NCBI GenBank assembly: GCA_964566225.1
Contig: CAZMHV010000005.1
Location: 1 to 60,308 of the forward strand
Reading direction: 5' to 3'
Origin: an uncultured Gammaproteobacteria bacterium
GTDB lineage: Bacteria; Patescibacteriota; Patescibacteriia; Magasanikbacterales; UBA922
DNA length: 60,308 nucleotides
Both the position numbers and the translations under genes were made by a program. Below, in pieces: positions 481-54,988 of the stretch; position 1 is the first letter of the stretch, and the number at the start of each line of letters is the position of its first letter. A model generated the notes under the pieces. The model saw only the letters and a list, made by a program, of their open reading frames with translations, made no database searches and had not been told where the DNA came from.

Positions 481-631
481 AAAGTAGATCTACCACTATA
501 CTAAAAAATTTGAGGGCAGTGGTCGATCCGCAGGCAGTGAAGATCTCCTTTCAATATCTTGTGTGCCTACGGGAAAATGGTCACGGCCAGCTCGGGGTGA
601 GTTGGTGCGTGAACGCTTGTTGGGCGCCTGG

Positions 632-871
632 TCAGCGCGTGCCGGCCTCGCCGTGGCGCGAGCGGGGGCGCAGGATCGGCTGGTGGTCGGGATTGCGGGC
701 GCGCATGCCCGTGATCATCTCGACCTCGGTGGCCGGCGGCACGTGTTCGTCCCGCGTGACATCGCCGGACGAGATGATGCCGAGGGAGTCGGCCCCGGGG
801 ACGACCTCCGTGGTGATTCGGGGCTCCTGCTCGTCCGTCTTACGCTCGTTCCTCGTTTCGTTGGGGTCCAT
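632..871 (-). CDS. G+C-rich orphan gene (island 1): 79-aa acidic, probably disordered protein of unknown function
   Basis: Inner ATG of ORF 632..973. Translation is MDPNETRNERKTDEQEPRITTEVVPGADSLGIISSGDVTRDEHVPPATEVEMITGMRARNPDHQPILRPRSRHGEAGTR. Almost every codon ends in G/C, and the other frames look like high-GC artefacts. The G+C-rich block spans about 511-946. No family recognised. Confidence 0.6.
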   Translation of the reverse strand: MDPNETRNERKTDEQEPRITTEVVPGADSLGIISSGDVTRDEHVPPATEVEMITGMRARNPDHQPILRPRSRHGEAGTR

Positions 872-930
872 GGGTTGCTTTTTTTCCCTTTTCTCTGATG
901 TCAGTTGGACCTGCCCATTCGTACCACTGT

Positions 931-986
931 GGTCGAAGGGCTCAGTATTTTTTTCACTTGTTGACAAAAGCACTGAGCCCTACAAC
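931..986 (-). promoter_or_regulatory. conserved leader hairpin, copy 1 (5' UTR of the island-1 gene)
   Basis: Plus strand reads GGTCGAAGGGCTCAGT-(25-nt A/T-rich loop)-ACTGAGCCCTACAAC. The arms are near-identical to the copy at 2264-2318. Confidence 0.5.
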
Positions 987-1008
987 GGAGTAGTACAACA
1001 AAGTGTAC

Positions 1009-1036
1009 ACTATATCATAAAAAGAGCCTTTGTCAA
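1009..1036 (-). promoter_or_regulatory. sigma70-type promoter for the island-1 gene
   Basis: On the - strand: TTGACA (comp 1031-1036), 16-nt spacer, TATAGT (comp 1009-1014). Confidence 0.55.
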
Positions 1037-1050
1037 GCTCTTTTTATGAT
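1014..1050. terminator. perfect 14-bp inverted repeat (terminator-like) downstream of the island-2 gene
   Basis: ATCATAAAAAGAGC-ctttgtcaa-GCTCTTTTTATGAT. The -35 hexamer of the island-1 promoter lies in the loop. Confidence 0.45.
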
Positions 1051-1257
1051 ATTTTTCAGTCGTCCACTGTACTTGAAAGATTCAATGACAATGGGTGACC
1101 GGCGTGCGTTCGGTCTCCTTTTCCTTTCTGGCTGCTTGGAGCAGCCGTGTGAATGCACGCGGGTGAAGTCTCTGGGCAGCGGGGTTTGGGCCACTCACTG
1201 CTGGGGACGGGTTGGGGATTGGTTACTGACAGGCGGGGTTCGCGGCGGGGCGGTGGA

Positions 1258-2169
1258 TCAGTCGGCGTGGGGCGGGTTCGGGTCCTCGGTGGGGTTGGCG
1301 TCGGTGCCGTCCACCGGGGCGTCGGCCTTGTCGTCGTTGTCCGCGGTGCCGGCGGTGGTGGCGAGCTTGGCGATCTCGTCGATGGCGGCGTCCGGGTCGA
1401 GCCCGGTCGCCGCGACGGTGATGCCGTCGTCGGTGCTGATGACGCTGCCGGCCGTGAGCGCCGCCGTGTCGGGCGTGAGGCCGTCGAGCGCGGCGCCGAC
1501 GGTGTTCTCGCCGGGGAGGGCGTCGGTGTTGGCGAGGAAGAACGTCACTTCGGGGAGCGTCGCCGCGTTTTCGAGGAAGACGCGGTAGTCCTCCTCGCTG
1601 ATCTCCGGCAGGTAGGACTCCCAGGTCGCGGGGCGGGTCACGGACGTCGAGATGCCCGTGATGCCCGTGCCGAAGGCGCGGAAGTTCCCCTGGTCGTCGT
1701 CGTCGAACTGGAGGTCCGGGCCCCGCAGACCGGTGAAGTCGATCACGGCCCGGACGTAGGAACCGTTCTGGAGTCGGGCGTACAGGTACGCCTGGTCCGT
1801 GGGGGCGCCGTTGATGGTGCCGAAGCCGCCGGTCAAGGTCCAGCGCTTGAACGGGGCACCCTTGGTCTCGGGCGGCACGTGCAGGAGGGCCACGACGGTG
1901 GCGTCGGGCACCGGGCCGTTGGCGGCGATGCCGTACCGGTCGCCGACCACCCGGAACGCCAGCTTGAGGCGGGTGGTTTCGGTGAGGGTCGAGTCGCCGT
2001 CGGCCTTGTTGGGGTCGAGGATGAAGTGCGCGCGGACCTTGCTCGTCGGGTCCGTGATCAGGATCACGTCCCGGGTGTCGCCCGGGTTGAGTCCGATCAG
2101 GTTGACGAGGTTGAGCCCGCGGGTGGGGCTCACGGCGAGGGCCACGTTCTGGGGGTTGGGGTTGCTCAT
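1258..2169 (-). CDS. G+C-rich orphan gene (island 2): 303-aa protein of unknown function with an acidic, low-complexity C-terminal tail
   Basis: Inner ATG (comp 2167-2169) of ORF 1258..2208. Translation starts MSNPNPQNVALAVSPTRGLNLVNLIGLNPGDTRDVILITDPTSKVRAHFILDP... and ends ...DNDDKADAPVDGTDANPTEDPNPPHAD. It is the only one of three overlapping long ORFs with protein-like composition and G/C-rich third positions. The 13 upstream codons have low GC3, so the start at 2208 is unlikely. Confidence 0.7.
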   Translation of the reverse strand: MSNPNPQNVALAVSPTRGLNLVNLIGLNPGDTRDVILITDPTSKVRAHFILDPNKADGDSTLTETTRLKLAFRVVGDRYGIAANGPVPDATVVALLHVPPETKGAPFKRWTLTGGFGTINGAPTDQAYLYARLQNGSYVRAVIDFTGLRGPDLQFDDDDQGNFRAFGTGITGISTSVTRPATWESYLPEISEEDYRVFLENAATLPEVTFFLANTDALPGENTVGAALDGLTPDTAALTAGSVISTDDGITVAATGLDPDAAIDEIAKLATTAGTADNDDKADAPVDGTDANPTEDPNPPHAD

Positions 2170-2263
2170 GACTAGGTTTTTCACTCCATTTTCGCATTTC
2201 CGCCGCATTCAGCTGGCGGAGATTGTCTCAACATCCCGCAGGATGGCACTCGACCGCCTAATT

Positions 2264-2318
2264 GGTCGAAGGGCTCGCTATTTTCCTTTAGATAAGAAAA
2301 ATACTGAGCCCTTCAACC
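2264..2318 (-). promoter_or_regulatory. conserved leader hairpin, copy 2 (5' UTR of the island-2 gene)
   Basis: Plus strand reads GGTCGAAGGGCTCGCT-(23-nt A/T-rich loop)-ACTGAGCCCTTCAACC. On the - strand, GGTTGAAGGGCTC pairs with GAGCCCTTCGACC with one G-U pair. Confidence 0.5.
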
Positions 2319-2384
2319 ATGTAAATAACCAATATCCAAGTTATAAAGAACAAATTGCTCTCGTAAGTGGAGAACAAACAGCGA

Positions 2385-2412
2385 AGTATATCAAAAAAAT
2401 TGAATTTGTCAA
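2385..2412 (-). promoter_or_regulatory. sigma70-type promoter for the island-2 gene
   Basis: On the - strand: TTGACA (comp 2407-2412), 16-nt spacer, TATACT (comp 2385-2390). The leader to the ATG is about 215 nt. Confidence 0.55.
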
Positions 2413-4200: not shown

Positions 4201-4360
4201 AAAAGTTGAATGCAGCCTCGGGGGTGTCCATGTCGTGTGGAGATTGGTGGATCCCCCGAGGTTTGGTGGTACGCGTCTCCTTTTTTATACGAAGGGTCAC
4301 CACCTGACCCGTTGGTTATTGCGAACCGAGGTGGTTCGCGTGGAAGCGCTGGCCGGACGG

Positions 4361-4510
4361 CTAGCGCTGCTGCGGGTTGCCCGTGTTTGGGAGCTGGTTG
4401 CGCCAGTTCTGGCGCTCCTTGGCCTTCTCACCGGTGCGGTGCTTGTGCCCGAGACCCCGGGCGCGACCGTGGTCGTCGCCCACCTTCTTGAAATTCTGAC
4501 CCTTGGCCAT
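4361..4510 (-). CDS. G+C-rich orphan gene (island 3): 49-aa highly basic small protein
   Basis: Below the ORF-track size cutoff. Reverse translation gives MAKGQNFKKVGDDHGRARGLGHKHRTGEKAKERQNWRNQLPNTGNPQQR, with stop TAG at comp(4361-4363). Third positions are G/C-rich and a GGAG lies 9 nt upstream. The listed ORFs 4210..4491, 4235..4591 and 4297..4584 are R/A/P-rich artefact frames. Confidence 0.55.
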   Translation of the reverse strand: MAKGQNFKKVGDDHGRARGLGHKHRTGEKAKERQNWRNQLPNTGNPQQR

Positions 4511-4555
4511 TGTCGAGTGCTCCGGCTGCGTAGTTTTTGGTGCAGCTGGTGTAAA

Positions 4556-6965: not shown

Positions 6966-6973
6966 ATTGCAAC

Positions 6974-7004
6974 AAAAAAAGGCGCTCCACACGGGGCGTC
7001 TTTT
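6974..7004. terminator. bidirectional terminator hairpin
   Basis: aaaaaaAGGCGCtccacacggGGCGTCTttt. On the - strand a 7-T run follows the stem, so it terminates the island-4 gene. Confidence 0.55.
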
Positions 7005-7103
7005 GTAATGGTTGTTGTGAAGGGCACCGGGATCCTCGCACGCTGCGCCGCTGGCCGATTGGCCGCTCTCGCATTGTGCGAAGGATTCCCGATGCCGTGG
7101 GGG

Positions 7104-7418
7104 TCATTCGAGGAGTCCGAGGAGCAGCGCGGCTGCCCCCATGACTTCGTTCGAGTTGAACCCTTTGATCGTGCAGACGTTCTGGCTGGAAGAGTTCTGC
7201 ACGTCGCTGCCGCAGACGGTCCCGATTTGGGCGCCGCGACCGAGCATGCCAGCCTCGAAGACCTTTCGGCCGTCGACGTAGCCGACGATGGTCCGGCGAT
7301 TCGGTCCGTAGACTTTGTTGCCGTCCACGTAACCGCGGATGTCTCCGCCGCCTCCCGGTCCGTAGACCGTGTTTCCATCGACATACCCGACAGTACTTCC
7401 AGTTCTAACTGGATTCAT
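7104..7418 (-). CDS. G+C-rich orphan gene (island 4): 104-aa repeat protein, reminiscent of 4-fold beta-flower proteins
   Basis: MNPVRTGSTVGYVDGNTVYGPGGGGDIRGYVDGNKVYGPNRRTIVGYVDGRKVFEAG...GAAALLLGLLE. It has three GYVDGxxV(Y/F) repeats. RBS GAGGAG lies 8 nt upstream. The family assignment is from memory of the repeat pattern only. Confidence 0.65.
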   Translation of the reverse strand: MNPVRTGSTVGYVDGNTVYGPGGGGDIRGYVDGNKVYGPNRRTIVGYVDGRKVFEAGMLGRGAQIGTVCGSDVQNSSSQNVCTIKGFNSNEVMGAAALLLGLLE

Positions 7419-7469
7419 TCTGGGTCACTCCTCGTAGGGAAAGTGGTGGAATAGCTCAGGAAACAGTAT

Positions 7470-11005: not shown

Positions 11006-11083
11006 CAAAAAACCCGCCTTCTCCCTCCTTTTCTCAAGAAAAAATTTTTCTCGAAAAAGGGATTGCGAAGGCGGGTTTTGTTG
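11006..11083. terminator. long hairpin / bidirectional terminator between the ALDH gene and island 5
   Basis: AACCCGCCTTC (11011-11021) pairs with GAAGGCGGGTT (11067-11077), followed by TTTTGTT. The 45-nt loop is A/T-rich. Confidence 0.5.
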
Positions 11084-11098
11084 TGGCGGGAGGTTGTC

Positions 11099-11800
11099 TC
11101 ACTCGTCGTTGAAGAGTGGGGCAAACCAGGGGAAGAGGGGCGCGAACCAGGACGAGGGTGTGTGCTGGTGACGGGCCCTGTGGAGAGATGCAACGACGAA
11201 ACCAGTGTTCTTCGAGACCTCCCAGTGGGAAGGATCGCGGTCGTCCTGTTCAAGCCGGATGAAGTTTCCTGCCTCTCGGAGGCCGAGTTCTTTTTGGGCT
11301 TGTTGCAGGCTTTTGACCCAGTTGGGGAACGGGTCGTCGATCCCTTGCCGGAAGGATTCTCCGTAGATGAACCGTTTGGCTTCTGGGGAGATTCCGAACT
11401 GAAGCATCGCCGGTGCCAGGATCTGGTGTCTGACACGGTTGTTGAAGGAGTCCCTGAGAATGTCCAGGTCGAGGCGGCCGTCGAGAAGTCGAGGTTGACT
11501 CTCCGGACGGTATTTTTCCGACTGATTCACCCGGAGTGCCGCCAGGTTTTCGGGCTCGTTGACTTCTTCGTCTTTGAGCACTTCGTGGAGCCACGCGCTC
11601 ATCTGCGCGTTGCTCCAAAGCAACTTCGGGCGGTGCAGGGCTTGAGCCGTCTTGAGGAACTCTTTCAAGTACCTGACGATTTCCGGCAAATGTTGATTTT
11701 CCTCGACGAAGGCCAGGATCTTGGCCATGTTGAGGGTCGCCATGACATCGGCGACCGTATACGCCATGGTCGCGCTGTTCGCCGTATCGCTGATCTTCAT
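11099..11800 (-). CDS. G+C-rich orphan gene (island 5): 233-aa protein of unknown function with a tandem C-terminal WFAPLF repeat
   Basis: MKISDTANSATMAYTVADVMATLNMAKILAFVEENQHLPEIVRYLKEF...SSWFAPLFPWFAPLFNDE. RBS GAGGAG lies 7 nt upstream. The alternative ORFs 11063..11908(+) and 11250..11840(-) are R/P/G-rich. Confidence 0.7.
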   Translation of the reverse strand: MKISDTANSATMAYTVADVMATLNMAKILAFVEENQHLPEIVRYLKEFLKTAQALHRPKLLWSNAQMSAWLHEVLKDEEVNEPENLAALRVNQSEKYRPESQPRLLDGRLDLDILRDSFNNRVRHQILAPAMLQFGISPEAKRFIYGESFRQGIDDPFPNWVKSLQQAQKELGLREAGNFIRLEQDDRDPSHWEVSKNTGFVVASLHRARHQHTPSSWFAPLFPWFAPLFNDE

Positions 11801-11842
11801 CGGGTTTCTCCTCGTGCGTGGGTCCGAATTTGGACCTCAATA

Positions 11843-17032: not shown

Positions 17033-18367
17033 ATGGCTCGTTCTTTCATGATTGCGTTCATGTGCTTTGTCCCCTCGATGTTTTGCTTCTTCGGATGTGA
17101 GACTCGGGTCACGACCAAGAATTTTCCCGACATGGCACGGACGATCGTCGAATTCGATGCGTCGTCGCAGACCGACATCGGAAACGACACCGGGAATCAT
17201 GTTTCGGGCCAGGTTTTCTTGCCGGCAGATGTGTCGGTGACGATCTCTGATGTGAAGGACTTCGGAGTCTCGGACATGATGTTTTCTGGTAGACGCGATG
17301 GTTTGCCAGATTCGACTCAAGTCGCTGACGTGTCTCCACTCCCACCCGAAGTGGACGCTTTCGTGAGCGAGGCTGATCTCGCTTACGAGCAAGACGCGAC
17401 TGTCGATGCAATCATCGACGCTACGCAGGAGGTTCTCGCCGACGTGGGAGTGGTCACTGACCAGTTTGTGAATCCCCCTCCGGCACAGCCAACCTGCGAG
17501 GTTGTCGAAGTCGAACAGGGCGGCCGTTGTTTCAATGGCTGTGATGACGACCTCGATGGTCTGCTTGATACGGACGATCCTTCGTGTGCGGGTAGCTGTG
17601 ACAAGCTCGACCCGTTTTGTGAAGGAGATCTCGTGTGCAACGACCTCACGGAAATGTGTGAGGAACCGATTCCGCTCGAGGCGCTCTATCCTGATTCGGG
17701 AGCGTGTGACCTCATGGAAGAGGTTCACCCCTGTCACAACCTCTGTGTTGGCGTTGTCAACATCGGGGAAACGTGTTTTTGGTCGGGTGGAGCCGTTGTT
17801 GCTGTCAAAGATGTCGATGCTGACCGCGTTCAAGATGAACCGGTTGTCCTCGACTTGCCAGTTGACAACTGCACGGCCTGGCCCAACGCCAATCAGGTTG
17901 ACACTGACGGAAATGGTGTCGGAGACTGGTGTGAACTTTCTGCTGAAGAACAGCAGGACACGGATCACGACCTCGTTCCTGATGGCGTTGACAACTGCCC
18001 TGGGTTCTACAACCCGTGGCAGTCTGACCAAGACCTCAATGGCATCGCTGACGAATGCGAGCTCATGCCGGAAGAGGGGTGTGAGGACGGTCTTCTCGAG
18101 ACAGAAGATCGATGGAACCCGAACCTGGTTTGGTGTGAGCACCGAGCCTTGGACAGTCTCTGGCATTTTTGGATTCACGTCTGTGGATTCGATCGAACCG
18201 GTGCGTGTGGGGCGTGTGATCCACCTCCACAAGAGTTTGAAACTTCGGTCGTCTACGAAGGATGGATGTGTACGGTCTATCCTGATCAAGACGGGGATGG
18301 CATCCCTGAGTCAGGAGAGGGCATTTTCGCCCAGTACCTCGACGAACCGTTCGTCGATCAACAGTAA
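17033..18367 (+). CDS. G+C-richer orphan gene (island 6): 444-aa acidic, Cys-rich putative lipoprotein with thrombospondin type-3 repeats
   Basis: Signal/lipobox MARSFMIAFMCFVPSMFCFFGC. TSP3-like NANQVDTDGNGVGDWCE and DTDHDLVPDGVDNCPGFYNPWQSDQDLNGIADECE. The antisense ORFs 16991..18289(-) and 17502..18512(+) are R/S/V-rich and were rejected. Confidence 0.75.
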   Translation: MARSFMIAFMCFVPSMFCFFGCETRVTTKNFPDMARTIVEFDASSQTDIGNDTGNHVSGQVFLPADVSVTISDVKDFGVSDMMFSGRRDGLPDSTQVADVSPLPPEVDAFVSEADLAYEQDATVDAIIDATQEVLADVGVVTDQFVNPPPAQPTCEVVEVEQGGRCFNGCDDDLDGLLDTDDPSCAGSCDKLDPFCEGDLVCNDLTEMCEEPIPLEALYPDSGACDLMEEVHPCHNLCVGVVNIGETCFWSGGAVVAVKDVDADRVQDEPVVLDLPVDNCTAWPNANQVDTDGNGVGDWCELSAEEQQDTDHDLVPDGVDNCPGFYNPWQSDQDLNGIADECELMPEEGCEDGLLETEDRWNPNLVWCEHRALDSLWHFWIHVCGFDRTGACGACDPPPQEFETSVVYEGWMCTVYPDQDGDGIPESGEGIFAQYLDEPFVDQQ

Positions 18368-19213: not shown

Positions 19214-20488
19214 ATGGATCAACCCTCTCTTTTTGCTAGCCCAAATATTCTTTCAGTCACCGAATTTCTCGGGGGGCTTAATTTGTTGCTCTCAGAAATG
19301 GGAATAGTAAAAGTTAAGGGTGAAATTTGTAATATTAGTTTACGCAGTAGTTATGGATTTTTTTCCATCAAAGAGTCTACTCCAGGCGCCAAGTCCGATG
19401 CCATGGTCGGATGCTTTCTTGGATGGAAACACATGAGTCGTGTGCAGCACCTCTTGCAAAATGGAATGGAAGTGGTGATTTCGGGTACGGCAAATATTTA
19501 TGTGCCCAATGGGAGTTTTCGTATTGATGTTGCTAATATTGAACCTGTTGGTGAAGGAGCCCTCCAAAAAGCGTTTGAAGCGTTGAAGTTGAAGTTGTCT
19601 GAAAAAGGATATTTTGATGTTACTCGTAAACGCGCAATTCCAGAGTTTGTGAAACACGTTGGGATGATTACATCCATGAGTGGTGCCGCGGTGATTGATT
19701 TTCAAAAAAATTTGGAGCCGCAGGGATTGCAGATTGAATACCTGGATGTGCGTGTAGAGGGAGACTCGGCCGAAGATTCCATTGTGCGAGCGATTAAAAA
19801 ATTTAATGAAATGCGACCACAGATTGACGCGCTCGTGCTTATTCGTGGTGGAGGAAGTTACGAAAGTTTGAAAGCCTTCAATAGTGAAGCAGTCGCTGAT
19901 GCTATTTATTTTTCGCGCATTCCTGTGATTACGGGTATTGGTCATGAACGCGATGATACGATTGCAGATTTTGTGGCTGATGTGCGTTGCTCTACGCCAA
20001 CAGCCGTGGCAGCGTTTTTGCAAACCAAACGCGAAGGTTTATTTTCTGTGCTGAGTAATTTAGAAAATGAATTGGTGTATTCATTTGACGGAATCTTTGA
20101 TGAACAAAAGTTAATTCTCGCTCACGAAACACAAAAGTTGATACGAAATTTTGAAATGGTGTTACAGCGTGATGAAACAGTGGTGCAGAATTTGGAATAT
20201 GGTTTACAAAGTGGGTTTCAATATATTTTTAATAATTTTCATTCGCTTGAGGAACGATTTTTTCGAGCTGGTTATGAATTTGAGTCGAACTTGCATTTGT
20301 CACTCCAAAAAGTAGAAAGTTTTGCAACTCAATTGCAGGTGCTCAACCCCGAGGCAATTTTGGAGCGGGGATATAGTATTGCATATAATGAAAAGGGGAA
20401 AGTGGTGAAGAGTGTGAAAGGTGTCGCTGCTGGGGATATTTTGAATTTGCGAGTATCAGATGGAACCATAAAAACAAAAGCAGCCTAA
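19214..20488 (+). CDS. xseA: exodeoxyribonuclease VII large subunit
   Basis: N-terminal OB-fold region, then LIRGGGSYESLKAFNSEAVADAIYFSRIPVITGIGHERDDTIADFVAD, typical of XseA; 424 aa. Confidence 0.85.
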   Translation: MDQPSLFASPNILSVTEFLGGLNLLLSEMGIVKVKGEICNISLRSSYGFFSIKESTPGAKSDAMVGCFLGWKHMSRVQHLLQNGMEVVISGTANIYVPNGSFRIDVANIEPVGEGALQKAFEALKLKLSEKGYFDVTRKRAIPEFVKHVGMITSMSGAAVIDFQKNLEPQGLQIEYLDVRVEGDSAEDSIVRAIKKFNEMRPQIDALVLIRGGGSYESLKAFNSEAVADAIYFSRIPVITGIGHERDDTIADFVADVRCSTPTAVAAFLQTKREGLFSVLSNLENELVYSFDGIFDEQKLILAHETQKLIRNFEMVLQRDETVVQNLEYGLQSGFQYIFNNFHSLEERFFRAGYEFESNLHLSLQKVESFATQLQVLNPEAILERGYSIAYNEKGKVVKSVKGVAAGDILNLRVSDGTIKTKAA

Positions 20489-20584
20489 TGTTTAAGCTGC
20501 TTTGGAGTCCATCCGAGTCTTCCTGCCTCGGGTGCTCCCTCCTTTCGTTTGATTGTGTTGCTTGTCCAGTCTGTGGTTCGTGCC

Positions 20585-20869
20585 CTAGTTGTCCAGCATG
20601 AGTTGCGTGACCACCGGGGCGAACTGACCGAGGAGCCACCCCGTGAGGCCGCCGTCCTTCCGCATCAGCGTCAGCTCGATGAGGGAGTGGATGAGACTCC
20701 TCATCATCGGATCTTCGGGGACGGGGAAGGGGCGAACCACGATGCCCGCGATGTGTCCGTCGTCGAACTCGGTCATGGCATCGTGCTTGTCCTCTCTCCT
20801 CGAGAAGTTGAACGAGCCGTCGTCCATCTTCACGATCCACCTCGGCAACGCCTCCATGAATTCTGTCAT
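20585..20869 (-). CDS. G+C-richer orphan gene (island 7): 94-aa protein of unknown function
   Basis: Inner ATG (comp 20867-20869) with GGAGGA 5 nt upstream. Translation is MTEFMEALPRWIVKMDDGSFNFSRREDKHDAMTEFDDGHIAGIVVRPFPVPEDPMMRSLIHSLIELTLMRKDGGLTGWLLGQFAPVVTQLMLDN. On the - strand a hairpin (AGCAGC..GCTGCT plus T-run) follows, overlapping the xseA stop. Confidence 0.6.
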   Translation of the reverse strand: MTEFMEALPRWIVKMDDGSFNFSRREDKHDAMTEFDDGHIAGIVVRPFPVPEDPMMRSLIHSLIELTLMRKDGGLTGWLLGQFAPVVTQLMLDN

Positions 20870-45512: not shown

Positions 45513-46148
45513 TTATCTGAAGCCGTCTGCACGTCTTTGGTTACATTCTACCACGCCCATGCCTTCTGTCCAAATATAGTCATCGGCAGCGCAGTTTGCT
45601 GCTCCTAAAGCTTCTTTACAGCTTGCTTTACATGCGTTTTCTGTCATCATAAAAGCAGTCCAGGTTCCTGCTTCATTTACTTTAAATTCACAGCAACCTT
45701 CAGGTGTACCTGCAGGTTCATTGGATCCCCCCGTGTCACCAGCTCCTCCACTGGCCTGTGGTTGAATCAATCTTTGTCCTACAAAGTTAGTAATGGCATA
45801 TGAGCCCACTACCACAATAAGACCAATAATCGCAGCAATAATAGTTTCTTTGGCCTTTTCAATTTCTGTTTCATTGCCACGTGCTGTCATCCAGGTAAAT
45901 CCACCGTAGACCATGAGTACCAAAAAGGCAATACCAGTAATACGCAGAGCTCCTTGGATAAGTGTGCCTACTTGTGTGCCGAGGTCATCGGTGCTCACTC
46001 CTGTTTTGGGGGCAACCTCACGTGTGAGAATGTCTTCAGCATTTCCAATATTTTTTTTGGCCAAAATCGGACCAGCAAACAGTACTCCGGTCAAAAGAAA
46101 TCCCATGAAAAATGAGAGCAATCTTTTGTGTGACAAAGAAAATTTCAT
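45513..46148 (-). CDS. T4SS-pilin-like membrane protein, paralog 5, with a Cys-containing C-terminal module
   Basis: Core FLVLMVYGGFTWMTARGNETEIEKAKETIIAAIIGLIVVVGSYAIT. Tail GCCEFKVNEAG...CKASCKEALGAANCAADDY..VVECNQ. Confidence 0.7.
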   Translation of the reverse strand: MKFSLSHKRLLSFFMGFLLTGVLFAGPILAKKNIGNAEDILTREVAPKTGVSTDDLGTQVGTLIQGALRITGIAFLVLMVYGGFTWMTARGNETEIEKAKETIIAAIIGLIVVVGSYAITNFVGQRLIQPQASGGAGDTGGSNEPAGTPEGCCEFKVNEAGTWTAFMMTENACKASCKEALGAANCAADDYIWTEGMGVVECNQRRADGFR

Positions 46149-46178
46149 ATAAAAAATGAGACAAGATCAACAAAAAGA

Positions 46179-46742
46179 TTATTGTCCTGGGACAGCAAAT
46201 GGAAGATTTGGATCATTGTTGATTCTTGGTGGACAAGGTGAGACTCCCAAATTTGGAGTTCCGAGATCAGCTCCATCTTGTCCTCGTTGAACTTCACCTG
46301 GTGCAAATTGTTCTGGACCAGTGCCCTCACAAGGTGCCACATTACCACCTCCACCCACATCAGCTTTCGTCTCAACTCCGGCATTGGCAGATCGGAATAC
46401 AAATATAGTGAGTGAGTACGAAGCCAAGACAATGATAATACCAATAATTGCCGTAGTAATAGTATCTTTGGCTTTGTCTACTTGTCCACTATCACCATGC
46501 GCTGTCATCCACAAAAATCCTCCGTACACCATGAGGATAAAAAAGATTAGACCAATGAGTGTGAGTGCGGTAGAAATCACATTGGCAATCACGGTAGAAA
46601 CTTCGGTTTGTTTCAAATCTGTTTTGGCCGCAGTCTCATCGAGTCCATAGTATGGATCAAGTGCTTGTGTAGGCGTACTCAAACAAAACATCAGTGTAAG
46701 GGTGGTACAAAAGAAGAAAATTTTTTTTATAATTCCGTGCAT
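46179..46742 (-). CDS. T4SS-pilin-like membrane protein, paralog 6
   Basis: Core FFILMVYGGFLWMTAHGDSGQVDKAKDTITTAIIGIIIVLASYSLT, with a Gly/Pro-rich tail containing 2 Cys. Confidence 0.7.
   Translation of the reverse strand: MHGIIKKIFFFCTTLTLMFCLSTPTQALDPYYGLDETAAKTDLKQTEVSTVIANVISTALTLIGLIFFILMVYGGFLWMTAHGDSGQVDKAKDTITTAIIGIIIVLASYSLTIFVFRSANAGVETKADVGGGGNVAPCEGTGPEQFAPGEVQRGQDGADLGTPNLGVSPCPPRINNDPNLPFAVPGQ
46441..46547. repeat. 107-nt segment near-identical to 47038-47144 (core of paralogs 6 and 7)
   Basis: A 42-nt perfectly identical run (46458-46499 = 47055-47096), one mismatch, then 11 more identical nt. The flanking sequence diverges. Confidence 0.85.
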
Positions 46743-46766
46743 AGTTTTTTGGGAGTGCAGACAATG

Positions 46767-47336
46767 TTATTGTTGAGCTTGCTGCGCACAAGCAGGTGCT
46801 TGGTTATTGGTCAAAGAACACAGGTTTGCAATACATGCTGCCGGGTCATTGAATGAAAGTATACCTTGTGGACAAGCCTGAGCACTTTCTCCACACACAT
46901 ATCCTGGATCTTGCAAACTTGAGTCAAGACAGTAAGTTTTTGAGGCACCACCATTTGCTGTAGGTGTAGCTCCAGCTCCACTACTGGCACTAAAGACAAA
47001 GTTGGTAATTGCATACGAAGCTAACACAACAATGATACCAATAATGGCTGCCACAATAGTATCTTTGGCTTTGTCTACTTGTCCACTATCACCATGTGCT
47101 GTCATCCAGAGGAAGCCTCCATACACCATGAGGATAAAAAAGATAACGGCAATCATGGAGAGGGCGGTACCAATCACATTACCAATAAGGGTAGGGATAT
47201 CACTGGGGTAGCGCTGTGCAATACCAGAAGCATTGGCTGTGGCGGAGAGACCATAGTCATCAGCATGAGCGAGGGCAGGAACCAAAAAAACTCCCATGAG
47301 TGAGAGTACCACAAAAACTTTTTTGAAAATGGACAT
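46767..47336 (-). CDS. T4SS-pilin-like membrane protein, paralog 7, with a Cys-rich tail
   Basis: Start taken at MSIFKKVFVVLSLMGVFLVPALAHA. Core FFILMVYGGFLWMTAHGDSGQVDKAKDTIVAAIIGIIVVLASYAIT. Tail TYCLDSS..YVCGESAQACPQG..PAACIANLCS..APACAQ. Confidence 0.7.
   Translation of the reverse strand: MSIFKKVFVVLSLMGVFLVPALAHADDYGLSATANASGIAQRYPSDIPTLIGNVIGTALSMIAVIFFILMVYGGFLWMTAHGDSGQVDKAKDTIVAAIIGIIVVLASYAITNFVFSASSGAGATPTANGGASKTYCLDSSLQDPGYVCGESAQACPQGILSFNDPAACIANLCSLTNNQAPACAQQAQQ
47038..47144. repeat. 107-nt segment near-identical to 46441-46547
   Basis: See the partner repeat at 46441-46547. Confidence 0.85.
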
Positions 47337-47409
47337 AAGAGAACGATTCAATGAAGAATGGAAGGTGATGGAGCTGCGGGGCTTCATCACTGGACACTAT
47401 TCACTGATA

Positions 47410-47805
47410 CTATGGGTAAATGTTGATCACGTTTCCGGTAGCGGCACGATTGGTATTTTCAAGTACATAGGTTGTAATACTCCAGGCACTCAAGATAATC
47501 AACAAGCCAAGGACACAGGCTTTGATGGTTTTTTGTGCGCTTTCGATTTTGTCTTCAGATCCTCCTGATGTCATCCACATGTATCCAGCATACACAATAA
47601 GACTCACACAAATAATACCGAGCAGGCCAAGTACTACGTTAATAATCTGTACGGCAGTAGTACGAACGTCGTTTGAACCAAGGCCACTGGCAGCGCCAAG
47701 GCTTTGTCCTTGCACACTCAGTCCAATATCTTGTGCGTGCACTGGTGCAAAAAAAATGCCAAGTCCAATGAGTGTCAAAATAAAAAAGGGAAGAACCTTT
47801 TTCAT
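47410..47805 (-). CDS. T4SS-pilin-like membrane protein, paralog 8
   Basis: Start taken at MKKVLPFFILTLIGLGIFFAPVHA. Core VSLIVYAGYMWMTSGGSEDKIESAQKTIKACVLGLLIILSAWSIT. Confidence 0.7.
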   Translation of the reverse strand: MKKVLPFFILTLIGLGIFFAPVHAQDIGLSVQGQSLGAASGLGSNDVRTTAVQIINVVLGLLGIICVSLIVYAGYMWMTSGGSEDKIESAQKTIKACVLGLLIILSAWSITTYVLENTNRAATGNVINIYP

Positions 47806-47907
47806 AGAAAATTTTTTAAAGTAATTGATAAGAGATAAAATGACCAAGTTCAAATGACCAATGTGAGACGGGTTTACTCATTTGTCATTTTGGTTTTGTC
47901 ACTTTGA

Positions 47908-47949
47908 AAAGAACAAAAGGGTAGGATACTCACGTGGGGCATCCTACCC
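47908..47949 (-). terminator. internal terminator inside the pilin array (after paralog 9)
   Basis: GGGTAGGAT (47919-47927) pairs with ATCCTACCC (47941-47949). On the - strand the stem is followed by TTTTGTTCTTTTC. Confidence 0.6.
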
Positions 47950-47964
47950 CTATTGGATGTTCTT

Positions 47965-48456
47965 TTATTGGTTAGCTGCGTCTGCACCAGCATCGGCTGG
48001 GTTCCAGTCAGCATTTTGACCCGCTACATTGGTCGCACTTGCCAAGTTTTGAAGTACAAATTTGGCAATTGCCCATGCACTGAGGATAATAGCCATACCA
48101 ACGACGCCTGCAAAGATAAGTTTGCGAGCTTCGGCGATTTTATCTTCACTGCCACCTGCAGTCATCCATTTGAAGCCACCGGCCAAAACGATAACTACGG
48201 CAATAATACCAAGTAAACTGAGTGATACGTTGATAAGACGTACAACGGTTGTTTGTAAACTGTTGTTGCCTAATGCAATACCACTTCCAGCGATTGCTGG
48301 ATCTCCTTCGATTTCTTTTGTTCCAAAAACGTCATTTCCAACAATGTTGTTTTGCGCACTTGCAAAGTTTGGTGCGAGCACCAAGCCGAGCATAAGAGCA
48401 GAGGTTAACCCTACTGCAATTTTGTTTTTTGTAATTTGAAAATTCACATGTCTCAC
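47965..48456 (-). CDS. T4SS-pilin-like membrane protein, paralog 9
   Basis: Core AVVIVLAGGFKWMTAGGSEDKIAEARKLIFAGVVGMAIILSAWAIA. Confidence 0.7.
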   Translation of the reverse strand: MRHVNFQITKNKIAVGLTSALMLGLVLAPNFASAQNNIVGNDVFGTKEIEGDPAIAGSGIALGNNSLQTTVVRLINVSLSLLGIIAVVIVLAGGFKWMTAGGSEDKIAEARKLIFAGVVGMAIILSAWAIAKFVLQNLASATNVAGQNADWNPADAGADAANQ

Positions 48457-48481
48457 CCCCTTTCAGGTTAAGATTAAAAGT

Positions 48482-49192
48482 TTATTGTCTATTGAACTGT
48501 AAACAGGTTACTAACTCTTGTGCACATTCTTCTACCAAGGGACTATCTTCAGCGAGTCCATTTTGACACAGTGCATGAAATTGTCGACATACCTGATCTC
48601 TGTTTTGTGCGTTGACACAGTCACTCATCGGTGCACCAGGAACATCACCATTATTTGCTGGGAGAACAAATACCACATAGGTACAATCTTCTCGAGCATC
48701 ACAGGCATTGCGTGTAAGCTCACTACATGAGTCTGATTCAGGTTGAACTTGTGGTGTACCTGGAGTAATTTGTCCTGCTGGAGCATTGCCTCCACTGTCT
48801 GAAGAAAGTGTCTTTCCAGTAATTCCTTCAATAACTGTGGTTAGTATACCATATGCTCCAAAAATGATAAAGAGTCCCATCACTGCATACAACATAGTCT
48901 TGGTTCCTTGCTGTACTTTGTCAGAGTTTCCAGCCGAAGTGAGCCACAAATATCCACCAAATACAAATACTGCCAAGGTAATTGATCCCAAAAATCCAAG
49001 GGTAATTTGAACAGCGTTTCCAAAGATCACTCGAGTATCTACCAGTCCTCTCGGATTTTTTTCACTTCCACCAATAGGATTAATAAGTTCTACGGGTGCA
49101 TCTGCTTGTTTGCCAAGGCCTTGAGCCTGTACTGGAGAACCTGGCAACATGAGAGCACAGAGAAAAAAAATGATAAAAAAATATTTTCGCAT
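48482..49192 (-). CDS. T4SS-pilin-like membrane protein, paralog 10, with a Cys-rich C-terminal module
   Basis: Signal peptide MRKYFFIIFFLCALMLPGSPVQA. Core LAVFVFGGYLWLTSAGNSDKVQQGTKTMLYAVMGLFIIFGAYGIL. The tail has 9 Cys (SDSCSELTRNACDAREDC...VTCLQF). Confidence 0.65.
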   Translation of the reverse strand: MRKYFFIIFFLCALMLPGSPVQAQGLGKQADAPVELINPIGGSEKNPRGLVDTRVIFGNAVQITLGFLGSITLAVFVFGGYLWLTSAGNSDKVQQGTKTMLYAVMGLFIIFGAYGILTTVIEGITGKTLSSDSGGNAPAGQITPGTPQVQPESDSCSELTRNACDAREDCTYVVFVLPANNGDVPGAPMSDCVNAQNRDQVCRQFHALCQNGLAEDSPLVEECAQELVTCLQFNRQ

Positions 49193-49240
49193 ACAAAAAG
49201 TAATTCAATACGGTGAAAGTTGTTTCACAGCGCGAATGGG

Positions 49241-50458
49241 TTATTGTTTTTGATTGGTAAGGTCTGTATCTAAATTGCCAACGGCTCTGTACAGGTCACT
49301 GACTTGGAGTGCATCAAGTATAAAGTCTATGATGAGGTACGCACCAAAGGCAATAATAATACCCACAATAGCTGCCACCAGTACATCGCGTCCTTTTTTG
49401 ACTTTTTCTGCACTGCCCATAGAGAGTACCATAGTAAAGCCTCCATATACAAACATGACAAAGGCAAAGGTACCTATAATGGCAAACATGGATTTACCTA
49501 AGTTGATAAACAAGATCAGCAAGTCGTTAATATTGCGACATCCTTCAAAACTAAAAGCACAATCAGGGAGTGGACCATTATAGCCCTTGGGTTTTTGGTA
49601 GTGTGGGTCATTGGCATGGAGTTCTGCCAGGGTAGGAGCCCGGGGAGTAGAACTGGCAGTGACTGTTGAATTGAGAATACAAACATTGAGAGCATCAATA
49701 CACCTTGCTGGAAGACTTGGGTTTGCTTTCATTTTTTCCAGCAAAGATGCTGGGGTATCTGCAGAAGGGTTATAACTCTCTGGAATACACTTTGACATTT
49801 CTCTTTTGAAGTTGATAAGACAAGCTTCTTTGGCTGCTTTTTCACTTTCATTGGCTTGTTGAACCCCCAAAATGTAAACAAACTTGTTACTATTTTCATT
49901 GGACATGTGAATCTGGTAGCGAAGTGGTTGTCTGTTGTTGTACTTGGCATCTTCATAGGGTTGAAAATTTGCAGGTCTATTACAACCAGCACCACCACCA
50001 CAGGTGTTTTTGAGACAGACTTTGTCAAATCCAAGTTGCATTTGAGCTACGGTAAATTGTCCTTGATCTTTTGGATACCAGTTTCCAACACGATATGGCG
50101 CATCCATATGAGAGTCAGCTGGGTCACAATAAATACCTTCTTTGACTGCTGTATATCCAGACCAGTTACGTGGTATGATTTGTATAACTCGGCCTCCTCC
50201 TATGTCAATATTTTGACTCAATTCGTTAAACCCAATAGTATATTGACCTTCTGGTATAGAAATACAAGCAGGTTGTCCTCCTACTGCAGAGGCACTGTTA
50301 TCACTCACCAACACTTTAATAAATTTTTTTCCAATTTCTGGAATCTTCCCATCACAAATATTTTCTCCTTCAGCATATACCTGAAGAGGGGACAGAAAAA
50401 AAACTGACAAAAAAAGCAATCCAGAAATAAGAGAAAACGTTTTGTTTTCAAACTTCAT
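49241..50458 (-). CDS. large secreted Cys-rich protein ending in a pilin-type two-helix core (paralog 11, reversed domain order)
   Basis: Signal peptide, then a Cys-rich ectodomain of about 310 aa, then FAFVMFVYGGFTMVLSMGSAEKVKKGRDVLVAAIVGIIIAFGAYLII at the C-terminus. Confidence 0.6.
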   Translation of the reverse strand: MKFENKTFSLISGLLFLSVFFLSPLQVYAEGENICDGKIPEIGKKFIKVLVSDNSASAVGGQPACISIPEGQYTIGFNELSQNIDIGGGRVIQIIPRNWSGYTAVKEGIYCDPADSHMDAPYRVGNWYPKDQGQFTVAQMQLGFDKVCLKNTCGGGAGCNRPANFQPYEDAKYNNRQPLRYQIHMSNENSNKFVYILGVQQANESEKAAKEACLINFKREMSKCIPESYNPSADTPASLLEKMKANPSLPARCIDALNVCILNSTVTASSTPRAPTLAELHANDPHYQKPKGYNGPLPDCAFSFEGCRNINDLLILFINLGKSMFAIIGTFAFVMFVYGGFTMVLSMGSAEKVKKGRDVLVAAIVGIIIAFGAYLIIDFILDALQVSDLYRAVGNLDTDLTNQKQ

Positions 50459-50505
50459 ACGAACAAGAAAAAACTAAAATGGTTTGGGTGAGCGAGTTAT
50501 TTGTA

Positions 50506-51900
50506 TTACATGGTAAGTTGCACGGTTCGGGCCGCACGCATAATAATATTGAGATCGCGTTCGTCAGCAGCTTCACCTACTTCACCTTCTTTGTAGGGCA
50601 CAATATACGCATCCATCATATCTTGCAGACCTGCCTTGGCAGTCTCCCATTCACGGCCGTGATACCAGTTTTTGGCAGTAAGGGACTGGTTGGCAAAGGT
50701 TGCCAGGATTGGATCTTGTTTTTGAATTCCAACATGTTCACGCAGTGGTGAAGGAACTTTGGCAGTGACATTGTATTGTTTGATATTGTTTGGGAGGGTA
50801 ATAAACCGGATAAAGTCCCAGGCATAGTTTTTGTTTTTGGACTTTTTGACCACAGATTCAATCCAGTAGTTGGCAATGTTGACAGGTTTGTTTGGGTTGA
50901 GTTGTGGGAGTGGAATAGAAACCAGTGTCATTTGTGGATTGCGAGTTTTGATACGAGCATAGTCGTAGGCATAACCAAAGTAAAATACAGACTTGTTGCG
51001 CACAAATGACTCAAAAGCTGTGCCTAAATTTTTGTTCCAAGAGTAGACGTCTTTGTCTTCTCGTGCAAAGTTGCTATAAAAGTTGAGTGCCTTACTAGTT
51101 GGATGGTTGCGGAGCGTGTTTTTATCAAGTCCTTGTGAAAACACAACACTTCCTCCACGAGTCATGTCAAATCCATTTTGCATGACCAGATATGCCAAAA
51201 TATCTGCACCATTATCAATGCTTTTGCCAGCTCCAAGGGCAATGCCAGATTGGATAATTTTGTTATCAGCATCATATTTGGTTGCTTCTTTGATGGCTTT
51301 TACCAGTTCATCCCAGGTTGTTGGAGCTGTGGCAATACCGGCTTGGTCAAGTAAGGTTTTGTTGTAGTATATTGCCAACGTATCATACGAGAGTGGGAGT
51401 CCAAATACTTGAGTACCTTGAATAACGTCCTCAGCAACACCACTTACATAATTGTCACGAATAGATTGCAGGGTAGGGAGTTGTTTGTCTTCTGTAATAA
51501 TAACGGTTTCTTTGGCATACTGTCCTTGTACTTCAGAGTGAGCCACGGTTACTTTGGGAGGCATGGGGGACAAACGACTGTCGTATTTTTTGAGAGTACG
51601 AATATGCGTAGAAATAATATCGGGTCCTACGTCGTCTGCGAGGGCGTTGGTAAAAAGTTTGTCATACTCTTCGTATCGAATTTGACGTATATTGATACTT
51701 ACTTGTGGAAACATTTTTTGGTATTCAAAAGCAAGGCGTCTGAGTTCACTGACGTCTCCATATACGGTCCAATAGTTCAGTTTGACTGGACGAATCGCTG
51801 CTTGTTCTGCTGCGGTTGGGGCTTTGCAACCAAAACCCGTAGAAACAAAAAGACTGGCCAAAACCACCAGGGAGAGAGATTTTTTGAAAAGTGGTGACAT
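50506..51900 (-). CDS. extracellular solute-binding lipoprotein (ABC family-1, sugar-type), with no permease or ATPase partner nearby
   Basis: Lipobox LFVSTGFGC. KLNYWTVYGD, FGLPLSYDTLAIYYNKTLLDQAGI..PTTWDELV. Confidence 0.75.
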   Translation of the reverse strand: MSPLFKKSLSLVVLASLFVSTGFGCKAPTAAEQAAIRPVKLNYWTVYGDVSELRRLAFEYQKMFPQVSINIRQIRYEEYDKLFTNALADDVGPDIISTHIRTLKKYDSRLSPMPPKVTVAHSEVQGQYAKETVIITEDKQLPTLQSIRDNYVSGVAEDVIQGTQVFGLPLSYDTLAIYYNKTLLDQAGIATAPTTWDELVKAIKEATKYDADNKIIQSGIALGAGKSIDNGADILAYLVMQNGFDMTRGGSVVFSQGLDKNTLRNHPTSKALNFYSNFAREDKDVYSWNKNLGTAFESFVRNKSVFYFGYAYDYARIKTRNPQMTLVSIPLPQLNPNKPVNIANYWIESVVKKSKNKNYAWDFIRFITLPNNIKQYNVTAKVPSPLREHVGIQKQDPILATFANQSLTAKNWYHGREWETAKAGLQDMMDAYIVPYKEGEVGEAADERDLNIIMRAARTVQLTM

Positions 51901-51905
51901 ACTGT

Positions 51906-54876: not shown

Positions 54877-54988
54877 AAGGGTAAACAATGAAATGCGAGA
54901 AAAGCTTGAAAGGCTTGAACAGCTCATAAAAACGAGCATTTCAAGCTTTTCTGGCCTTTCTAGCGATAAATGAATAAAAGACTGCCAT

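What the first reader, a model, noticed from the sequence alone, without database searches (positions are those of the whole stretch)
931..2318. Conserved long hairpin shared by the 5' leaders of the two most G+C-rich islands
The leaders of the island-1 and island-2 genes carry the same roughly 55-nt element exactly at the A+T/G+C junction. The + strand reads TGGTCGAAGGGCTC(AGT/GCT)-A/T-rich loop-ACTGAGCCCT(A/T)CAAC at 931-986 and 2264-2318. The arms are conserved while the loops differ in sequence but are similar in length, a pattern consistent with a structure-constrained element. I found no third copy in the window. Candidate roles are a regulatory RNA hairpin, a protein-binding or processing site, or a recombination scar or site marking how these two cassettes arrived.
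Basis: seen in the sequence. Interest (0 to 1): 0.65.

Follow-up and report, generated by a model that had tools for sequence, protein, structure and literature searches.

The report
Conserved mRNA leader hairpin, GC-rich orphan genes
Two neighbouring, unusually G+C-rich, abundantly transcribed genes of an uncultured Peregrinibacteria-like bacterium start their messenger RNAs with the same 55-base hairpin, which is kept in relatives while the genes change fast, so it is a new small cis-acting RNA signal whose exact job, probably RNA processing or regulator binding, is untested.

Summary
Two near-perfect hairpins of about 55 nt with identical 13-14 nt outer arms lie at 931-986 and 2264-2318, and the window holds no third copy. 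They sit on the minus strand in the 5' leaders of two tandem G+C-rich orphan genes (632-871 and 1258-2169). Each gene has its own near-consensus sigma-70 promoter in A+T-rich DNA.

The element is conserved in front of the gene-2 protein family in four further contigs. A covariance model built without L193 scores it at 58.5 bits. The mRNA-sense strand folds better than the antisense in every full-length copy, by 1.6 kcal/mol in hp1 and 7-10 in the others. Two base pairs show compensatory changes, and one lineage has a matched G:C insertion. The arms stay invariant while the adjacent leader (68% identity) and the coding sequence (dN/dS about 1.2) diverge.

There is no Rfam match and no mobile-element gene, and the integron attC polarity is wrong.

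Best reading: a new sense-strand 5'-UTR RNA element, most likely a double-strand-specific (RNase III-type) processing or stability site, or else a regulator-binding site.

The wider pattern is more surprising: islands with GC3 up to 97% that are abundantly transcribed in a candidate-phyla-radiation (CPR) genome.

The parts
931..986 (-). hp1: leader hairpin of gene 1. Sense RNA is GUUGUAGGGCUCAGUGCUUUUGUCA-ACAAG-UGAAAAAAAUACUGAGCCCUUCGAC, with 22 pairs and 3 mismatches.
   Evidence: -27.2 kcal/mol, z -5.2; 73.2 bits. In a ~5% diverged strain, 948 T>C turns the C.A mismatch into a C-G pair (-33.0 kcal/mol).
2264..2318 (-). hp2: leader hairpin of gene 2. It has a 12-13 bp outer stem, a 2x2 internal loop (AG/GC), a 10 bp A/U-rich inner stem and a 5-nt loop.
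   Evidence: -35.6 kcal/mol, z -9.7; 82.4 bits. Orthologues are at L191:746-801 and L181:901-955. More distant homologues are at L193:178-229 and L194:1097-1132.
1009..1036 (-). Promoter of gene 1: TTGACA, 16-nt spacer with TG, then TATAGT. The predicted start lies about 16 nt upstream of hp1.
   Evidence: 11 of 12 consensus positions; 6 promoter-like sites found against 0.6 expected in shuffles.
2385..2412 (-). Promoter of gene 2: TTGACA, 16-nt spacer with TG, then TATACT. The predicted start lies about 60 nt upstream of hp2.
   Evidence: The promoter is conserved in L181 and L191.
632..871 (-). Gene 1: a 79-aa acidic orphan protein with GC3 0.91.
   Evidence: No Pfam or NCBIfam match. RNA contigs cover 585-926 in five runs from two studies.
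1258..2169 (-). Gene 2: a 303-aa orphan protein with GC3 0.97, a beta-rich core and an acidic, disordered C-terminus. It belongs to a small family.
   Evidence: Only 3 relatives among 1.84 billion representative proteins. Family alignment. dN/dS is 1.23 against 0.02 for the neighbouring host gene. RNA contigs.
2355..2377 (-). Small stem-loop followed by a U tract, at the very 5' end of the predicted gene-2 transcript.
   Evidence: It is kept, with changed pairs, in L181 (read from the sequence).
2200..2219 (-). Second leader hairpin of the CCGCC...GGCGG type, between hp2 and the start codon.
   Evidence: Read. A CCG(N)CUGC...GCAG(N)CGG hairpin recurs at this place in L181, L191, L193 and L194.
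1012..1052 (.). Perfect 16-bp palindrome that encloses the -35 box of the gene-1 promoter. It is probably the terminator of gene 2.
   Evidence: I24. The 1018 T>C change in relatives keeps a G.U pair on the minus strand.

Best explanation
The two elements are copies of one cis-acting RNA hairpin, made as part of the 5' untranslated leaders of two adjacent minus-strand genes that each have their own promoter. The hairpin belongs ancestrally to the leader of the gene-2 protein family in Peregrinibacteria-like (candidate phyla radiation) genomes, and in this lineage it was also copied in front of gene 1.

It works at the RNA level on the mRNA-sense strand. The most likely mechanism is that the roughly two-turn double-stranded stem is a substrate for a double-strand-specific ribonuclease (RNase III type). 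The internal loop 10-11 pairs below the apical loop fits such a site. Cleavage would remove the A+T-rich 5' part of the primary transcript and leave the mature, entirely G+C-rich and abundant mRNA, so the same signal would process both genes.

What is shown: the sequence, the fold, the leader position, conservation with structure-preserving changes, the strand asymmetry, and abundant RNA from the genes.

What is inferred: cleavage, the enzyme, and the effect on stability or translation.

My estimates: about 0.85 that this is a functional sense-strand RNA element. Within that, about 0.4-0.45 for processing or stability by a double-strand-specific nuclease.
For: - Position: near-consensus promoters lie upstream of both hairpins on the minus strand. 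Neither hairpin is followed by a U tract, so neither is a terminator.
- Fold: z-scores are -5 to -10.
- Strand asymmetry: the sense strand folds better than the antisense in every full-length copy. Values are -27.2/-25.6, -35.6/-28.6, -34.3/-26.5, -34.5/-24.4 and -32.9/-23.6 kcal/mol. Sense hits also outscore antisense hits by 20-35 bits with the covariance model.
- Family: L193 and L194 were not used to build the model and score 58.5 bits (E 1.5e-14) and 29.8 bits. Both sit in the leader of gene-2 homologues that share only 34-41% amino-acid identity.
- Structure-preserving change: one pair reads A-U / G-U / G-C and the next reads U-A / C.A / C-G across copies. L181 has a matched G and C insertion in the two arms. 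The changes in L191 are confined to the apical loop.
- Constraint: between the window strain and L191 the hairpin arms are identical, while the leader next to them is 68% identical and the coding sequence is 85% identical at the nucleotide level and 74% at the amino-acid level.
- Processing hint: all five gene-1 RNA contigs that reach the 5' part of the gene (four runs of one study, one of a second) stop at 900-926. That is 5-31 nt short of the hairpin base at 931.
- Stem geometry: 22-24 pairs, with an internal loop 10-11 pairs from the apical loop in the hp2-type copies. This matches what is known of bacterial RNase III sites such as T7 R1.1 (from my own knowledge, not tested here).
Against: - No cleavage site has been mapped. 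Contigs from k-mer assembly end early, and stable hairpins are under-represented in random-primed cDNA, so the contig ends are weak evidence.
- Covariation is thin: 6 distinct sequences and only 1-3 pairs with changes on both sides. The shuffle controls are not decisive (35/500 and 87/500), and the RNAalifold covariation term is about 0.
- The outer stem and the inner CUUUUCU/AGGAAAG segment are conserved in sequence, not only in pairing. That fits a sequence-specific binding protein at least as well as RNase III.
- One gene-2 homologue (L190) has a different leader hairpin.
- Whether this organism encodes RNase III could not be checked.
Confidence: 0.42

Rival explanations
1. The hairpin is an RNA operator for a sequence-specific binding protein. 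That protein could be a product of gene 1 or gene 2 acting in autoregulation, as in ribosomal-protein leaders, or a dedicated translational repressor or antiterminator. It would recognise the invariant outer stem and co-regulate the two genes.
For: Sequence is strictly conserved in GGUUG.RGGGCUC / GAGCCCUUCRACC and in CUUUUCU / AGGAAAG across genomes whose leaders are otherwise unalignable. That is more conservation than pairing alone requires. The same element sits on two different genes with separate promoters. It is tied to one protein family. This genome also uses a long leader hairpin at rpsF, which is a classical autoregulated leader.
Against: No RNA-binding domain is recognisable in gene 1 or gene 2. 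The hairpin lies 56-94 nt from the start codons and does not sequester the ribosome-binding site. L190 lacks the element.
Confidence: 0.3
2. The hairpin is a generic structural stabiliser or insulator. It would slow 5'-end-dependent decay or separate the leader from the coding region, without any specific recognition.
For: Other G+C-rich island genes in related genomes carry unrelated long leader hairpins (L182:13225-13268, L183:10217-10279 and the L190 leader). The island transcripts are abundant.
Against: The hairpins start 16-60 nt from the predicted 5' ends. That is too far for the classical 5'-terminal protection (from my own knowledge). The strict sequence conservation of the arms is not needed for this role.
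Confidence: 0.14
3. The hairpin is a DNA-level element. It could be a recombination or transposition site (attC-like, an IS200/IS605 end, or a REP/MITE relic) that marks where G+C-rich cassettes were inserted behind resident promoters.
For: It lies exactly at the composition step and at the step in divergence. The promoter side is 95-99.5% identical between strains, against 68-85% on the gene side. Two similar palindromes flank gene 2 (I3). The 14-nt arm GTCGAAGGGCTCAG equals the arm of a multi-copy palindrome family in G+C-rich bacteria such as a Binatia MAG.
Against: - Gene 2 has the same synonymous divergence as its host neighbour (dS 0.15 against 0.20). Homologous genes occupy the site in all relatives seen, so no cassette swap is visible.
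- Pairing is systematically better on the mRNA-sense strand.
- The copies are confined to leaders of one gene family.
- No integrase or transposase was found among the window ORFs tested.
- The core-site polarity is GTY...RAC, which is opposite to attC (read).
- No matching hairpin lies at the 3' ends of the islands.
Confidence: 0.08

Closest known systems
RNase III processing hairpins in mRNA leaders and between genes (phage T7 R1.1-type sites, the lambda N leader, the rnc and pnp leaders)
   Same: A single long stem of about two helical turns in an untranslated region. In most copies an internal loop lies roughly 10-11 pairs below the apical loop. No U tract follows. The element is associated with abundant transcripts.
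   Different: No cleavage has been mapped. The stem sequence is conserved far more strictly than known RNase III sites require. There is no sequence relationship to any of those sites. The enzyme was not located in this organism.
Autoregulatory leader hairpins bound by the gene's own product (ribosomal-protein leaders, such as the rpsF/S6:S18 leader present in this same window at 54902-54967)
   Same: A gene-family-specific structured element in the 5' leader whose sequence is conserved in the stem. It occurs in a genome that uses this strategy elsewhere.
   Different: No binding protein is known. The products of genes 1 and 2 have no recognisable RNA-binding fold. The hairpin does not overlap the ribosome-binding site.
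Integron attC sites
   Same: An imperfect palindrome of 55-60 nt next to single-gene units whose composition is foreign to the genome. Strand-specific folding matters in both.
   Different: attC lies at the 3' end of a cassette and reads RYYYAAC...GTTRRRY with extrahelical bases. This element lies in the 5' leader, reads GTYGAAG...CTTCRAC (opposite polarity) and is nearly perfectly paired. It is not near an integrase, and the flanked gene is inherited vertically.
REP/REPIN-like palindromic repeats, here the family ..GTCGAAGGGCTCAGGACGAACGG..CCGTTCGTCCTGAGCCCTTCGAC.. found in Binatia and other G+C-rich MAGs
   Same: An identical 14-nt arm and a similar overall length.
   Different: Those repeats are multi-copy, G+C-rich throughout and flanked by further nested palindromes. 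The element here has an A/U-rich inner stem, no similarity in the flanks and only leader-associated copies. The match is probably coincidental.

Membership tests
Any Rfam 15 family | Score at or above the family's gathering threshold | tested here: not met
   Across the whole window only three tRNAs pass. With permissive filters on 400-2650, the hairpins give only chance-level matches to microRNA precursor models (14-20 bits against thresholds of 48-211).
Intrinsic (Rho-independent) terminator | A G+C-rich stem-loop followed directly by a U tract | tested here: not met
   Neither hairpin is flagged on either strand. The sequence after the stem is CACAGUGG or AAUUAGGC on the sense strand.
Integron attC | Core sites with 5'-RYYYAAC ... 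GTTRRRY-3' polarity, extrahelical bases and an unpaired central region | tested here: not met
   Both strands read GTYGAAG ... CTTCRAC. The stems are nearly perfect.
Integron attC | Located at the 3' end of promoterless cassettes, downstream of intI/attI/Pc | tested here: not met
   The element lies in 5' leaders, and each gene has its own promoter. No integrase was found among the ORFs scanned. Not every small ORF was scanned.
REP/REPIN or MITE | Many dispersed extragenic copies in one genome, usually with a RAYT or transposase gene | tested here: not met
   There are two copies in 60 kb, both in leaders. The roughly 100 kb of related loci hold no copy other than leader copies of the gene-2 family. 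The rest of the genome could not be searched.
IS200/IS605-type element ends | Subterminal hairpins at both ends of a unit that carries or depends on tnpA/tnpB | tested here: not met
   No tnpA or tnpB was found in the ORFs scanned. The unit between the hairpins is inherited vertically, with dS like the host gene.
RNase III processing site | Double-stranded stem of about 20 bp or more | tested here: met
   22-24 pairs in hp1, hp2 and the L181, L191 and L193 copies. The L194 copy is shorter, at about 15 pairs.
RNase III processing site | Mapped staggered cleavage that leaves 5'-monophosphate ends in the stem | tested here: inconclusive
   Only assembled RNA contigs are available. Five gene-1 contigs end at 900-926, just 3' of the hairpin, and none enters it. 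Raw reads with 5'-end information are not available.
Structured cis-regulatory RNA motif (in the sense used by comparative-genomics motif surveys) | Recurrence upstream of homologous genes in diverged genomes, with structure-preserving variation | tested here: met
   Five lineages carry it in front of the gene-2 family. Compensatory pairs and a paired insertion are seen. The statistical power is low, with six distinct sequences.

The most novel reading that the evidence does not exclude
The hairpin may be the dedicated recognition or processing signal of a separate expression regime. In this reading, Peregrinibacteria-like CPR bacteria keep a set of fast-evolving orphan genes (dN/dS about 1.2) at GC3 of 90-97% inside genomes of about 41% G+C. 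Each gene is a self-contained unit that yields abundant RNA, and its extreme composition is held by selection on the RNA rather than being a decaying trace of transfer. The selective reason could be escape from A/U-specific ribonucleases, or function in or on a G+C-rich partner cell. The leader hairpin would mark where the mature G+C-rich RNA begins.
Probability: 0.12. Interest if true: 0.8.

Novelty: new member of a known kind. Interest (0 to 1): 0.5.

Why it matters
Very few cis-regulatory RNAs are known from candidate-phyla-radiation bacteria, and none of these organisms is genetically tractable. A compact, sequence-conserved leader hairpin tied to one orphan protein family is a concrete target for biochemical tests: RNase III cleavage, protein pull-down and reporter fusions.

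It also points to a larger oddity. These bacteria hold islands with GC3 up to 97% that are the only parts of the first 25 kb of the window represented in sludge metatranscriptome assemblies. The islands evolve under diversifying or relaxed protein selection, and public gene calls systematically place their genes on the wrong strand. The proteins are therefore largely absent from protein databases.

Tried and rejected
- Frame error: (protein 2) used window:1258-2170, one base out of frame. Both results are void. The searches were repeated with 1258-2169.
- Homologues of gene 2: the word-index search found none. The full HMMER search found only three.
- Structure of gene 2: the AlphaFold model is poor (mean pLDDT 55.7), and Foldseek against the PDB and BFVD gave no match with E <= 0.001. 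A profile search of PDB sequences gave only weak proteasome-alpha hits, which I take to be spurious.
- Motif scans: IMG/VR gave only unrelated G+C-rich hairpins and one unrelated phage repeat, and nothing with the family-level pattern. The strict scan of JGI metagenomes returned four loci, three of them members of that REP-like family and none like the window element.
- Leader peptide: an AUG-started 10-codon ORF overlaps hp2 in the window strain, but the AUG is absent in L191, so I rejected it.
- Promoter inside the hairpin: there is only a 9/12 match in hp2 and none in hp1, so I did not pursue it.
- Gene 1 is not related to the gene-2 family.
- Literature searches found no description of the motif or of G+C-rich islands in Peregrinibacteria.
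- Extending the contig beyond the window failed.

Full report
**Observation.** The window has about 41% G+C and contains seven short G+C-rich islands. The 13-mer GGTCGAAGGGCTC occurs only at these two places, and its near reverse complement forms the second arm. The copies are 74% identical, while their flanks are at background similarity. Both fold into a single long hairpin with z-scores of -5 to -10. A covariance model scored at every window position finds only these two sites (82 and 73 bits). The next hit, at 13 bits, is the leader hairpin of the ribosomal protein S6 gene. The placement at the composition step is correct. G+C is 0.30-0.34 on the promoter side and 0.65-0.71 inside the gene.

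**Anatomy.** The island genes are on the minus strand.
- Codon-position G+C identifies gene 1 as 632-871 (79 aa, GC3 0.91) and gene 2 as 1258-2169 (303 aa, GC3 0.97).
- My first searches with gene 2 were one base out of frame and are void.
- Each gene has its own near-consensus extended -10 promoter in A+T-rich DNA: TTGACA-16-TATAGT at 1036-1009 and TTGACA-16-TATACT at 2412-2385.
- The hairpins therefore lie in the 5' leaders. They start about 16 and about 60 nt after the predicted transcription starts, and end 59 and 94 nt before the start codons.
- Neither hairpin is followed by a U tract.
- The gene-2 leader has two further small conserved hairpins, at 2377-2355 and 2219-2200.

**Source organism, and whether the islands are real.** Homologues of the neighbouring 520-aa host protein are annotated Candidatus Peregrinibacteria or Patescibacteria. 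The sequence occurs in wastewater and sludge runs. A strain about 5% diverged, from another study, has the same arrangement, so the islands are not assembly chimeras. Metatranscriptome contigs from two studies lie only on islands 1, 2, 3 and 7 within the first 25 kb, and on none of the roughly 20 host genes there.

**Conservation of the hairpin.**
- hp1: in the diverged strain the only change is 948 T>C. On the sense RNA this converts a C.A mismatch into a C-G pair (-33.0 against -27.2 kcal/mol).
- hp2: in the same strain (L191) the changes are confined to the apical loop and the outermost pair.
- L181: the host neighbour is 85% identical at the protein level and the locus is syntenic. The orthologous hairpin has a matched extra G in one arm and an extra C in the other. 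Two inner pairs have changed on both sides, A-U to G-C and U-A to C-G.
- Gene-2 family: gene 2 has only three relatives among 1.84 billion representative proteins. Two of them, on L193/L192 and L194, carry the same hairpin in their leaders downstream of consensus promoters.
- Model scores: the covariance model built without them scores L193 at 58.5 bits (E 1.5e-14) and the shortened L194 version at 29.8 bits.
- Exception: the third relative, on L190, has a different G+C-rich leader hairpin.
- Strand: in all five full-length lineages the mRNA-sense strand folds better than the antisense strand, by 1.6 kcal/mol in hp1 and by 7-10 kcal/mol in the other four, because of G.U pairs.
- Formal covariation is modest. 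One to three pairs show changes on both sides, the shuffle controls are not decisive, and the RNAalifold covariation term is about zero. The sample is six distinct, highly similar sequences.

**Constraint relative to the surroundings.** Between the window strain and L191:
- The intergenic DNA is 99.5% identical.
- The promoter is 97.6% identical.
- The hairpin arms are 100% identical.
- The leader between hp2 and the start codon is 68% identical.
- Gene 2 is 85% identical at the nucleotide level and 74% at the amino-acid level.
- The host gene is 96% identical at the nucleotide level and 99% at the amino-acid level.

Gene 2 has dN/dS of 1.23 with dS 0.15. The host gene has 0.02 with dS 0.20. 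Against L181 the ratios are 1.14 and 0.08. Equal synonymous divergence means gene 2 was inherited together with its neighbours. Its extreme GC3 is being maintained rather than decaying, and the hairpin is not a recent recombination boundary.

**Mechanism.** The evidence shows that the hairpin is a conserved, sense-strand RNA structure in the leaders of two abundantly transcribed genes. My preferred mechanism is inferred, not shown. The stem has 22-24 pairs, and in most copies an internal loop lies 10-11 pairs from the apical loop. I propose that this stem is cut by a double-strand-specific RNase. The cut would remove the A+T-rich 5' part and leave the mature G+C-rich mRNA. All five gene-1 RNA contigs that reach the 5' part of the gene stop at 900-926, just short of the hairpin base at 931. 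This is consistent with processing but weak, because assembly and cDNA bias could produce the same pattern. The strict sequence conservation of the outer stem and of the CUUUUCU/AGGAAAG segment fits a sequence-specific binding protein about as well, so I rank that reading second. A purely structural stabiliser and a DNA-level recombination site rank lower.

**Comparison with known families.**
- Rfam: no family matches.
- Terminator: the element lacks a U tract.
- Integron attC: the defining tests are not met. The polarity is opposite, the stem is nearly perfect, the element sits in the leader, and no integrase was found.
- REP/MITE or IS200/IS605 ends: membership fails on copy number, distribution and the absence of a transposase.
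- REP-like family: a multi-copy palindrome family in a Binatia MAG and other G+C-rich genomes shares the 14-nt arm GTCGAAGGGCTCAG. It shares nothing else, so I treat the match as a probable coincidence and record it as an open lead.

**Verdict.** The element is a new, narrowly distributed 5'-UTR RNA motif, that is, a new member of a known kind. Its mechanism is untested. The more unusual biology lies in what the motif is attached to: G+C-rich, fast-evolving, abundantly transcribed orphan genes in a CPR genome.

Noticed in passing
window 541-890, 1081-2220, 4211-4550, 6971-7420, 11051-11840, 17131-18230, 20521-20860: Seven G+C-rich (56-69%) single-gene islands sit in a genome of about 41% G+C. 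Six of the genes, all on the minus strand, are orphans or nearly so, with GC3 of 0.72-0.97. The island at 17131-18230 is the exception: its gene is on the + strand, matches Pfam TSP_3 and has GC3 0.59. At least five of the genes sit behind a near-consensus sigma-70 promoter in A+T-rich DNA. Within 1-25000, RNA contigs from two metatranscriptome studies map only to islands 1, 2, 3 and 7.
   Followed up: partly
L182:6861-7740, L182:12561-13170, L183:10331-11690, L190:200-1000, L193:178-790, L194:1097-1700: Other Peregrinibacteria/Patescibacteria contigs carry the same kind of island: a single orphan gene at 64-70% G+C. Some of these genes are unrelated in sequence to those in the window. The phenomenon is therefore lineage-wide, not specific to this window.
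   Followed up: partly
window 1258-2169 compared with L191:2-667 and L181:170-821: Gene 2 evolves with dN/dS of about 1.2, while its synonymous divergence equals that of the adjacent host gene (dN/dS 0.02-0.08) and GC3 stays near 97%. The protein is under diversifying or relaxed selection, but the composition is actively maintained.
   Followed up: yes
L001:753-1088, L001:1343-2365, L181:135-932, L182:6812-7666, L183:10289-11755, L191:2-772: Public gene calls place 'shadow' ORFs on the wrong strand throughout these G+C-rich islands. As a result the real proteins are missing from the protein collections, and gene 2 did not even find itself.
   Followed up: partly
L059, L083, L110, L112, L122, L129-L131 (Binatia MAG OZ253480.1), L121 (OZ220710.1), L177-L179: A multi-copy nested palindrome family, aagcttGTCGAAGGGCTCAGGACGAACGG-loop-CCGTTCGTCCTGAGCCCTTCGACaagctcagg, occurs in several G+C-rich phyla. 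It shares the 14-nt arm of the window hairpin.
   Followed up: partly
L183:10217-10279 and L182:13225-13268: Long hairpins of 44-62 nt, with G+C-rich outer stems and A/U-rich inner stems, lie in the leaders of unrelated G+C-rich island genes. The L183 hairpin scores 24.8 bits with the model but folds better on the antisense strand.
   Followed up: partly
window 1097-1115 and 1135-1151; L181:43-61: The G+C-rich 3' UTR of gene 2 contains conserved hairpins. GACCG...CGGTC in the window is GGCCG...CGGCC in L181, which is a compensatory change.
   Followed up: no
window 54902-54967 (minus strand): A long leader hairpin lies between a TTGACA-17-TATAGT promoter and the ribosomal protein S6 gene. It is presumably the S6:S18 autoregulatory leader, although Rfam reports no hit there at gathering thresholds.
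   Followed up: partly
window 11009-11079 and 20453-20516: Very long inverted repeats (35-nt arms at 11009-11079) lie between convergent host and island genes. They are probably bidirectional terminators.
   Followed up: no
window 7104-7418 (minus strand): The island-4 gene encodes three tandem GYVDGNxVYGP repeats and gives a sub-threshold match to Pfam Bflower_2. It is conserved in L181:5822-6136.
   Followed up: no
window 4361-4510 (minus strand): The island-3 gene encodes a 49-aa basic protein (MAKGQNFKKVGDDHGRARGLGHK...) with GC3 0.88. It is about 76% identical in L181. RNA contigs at 4220-4536 span almost exactly the predicted transcript.
   Followed up: partly
window 45513-52559 (minus strand): Three genes with T4SS_pilin domains are interspersed with orphan genes and a gene for a solute-binding protein.
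   Followed up: no
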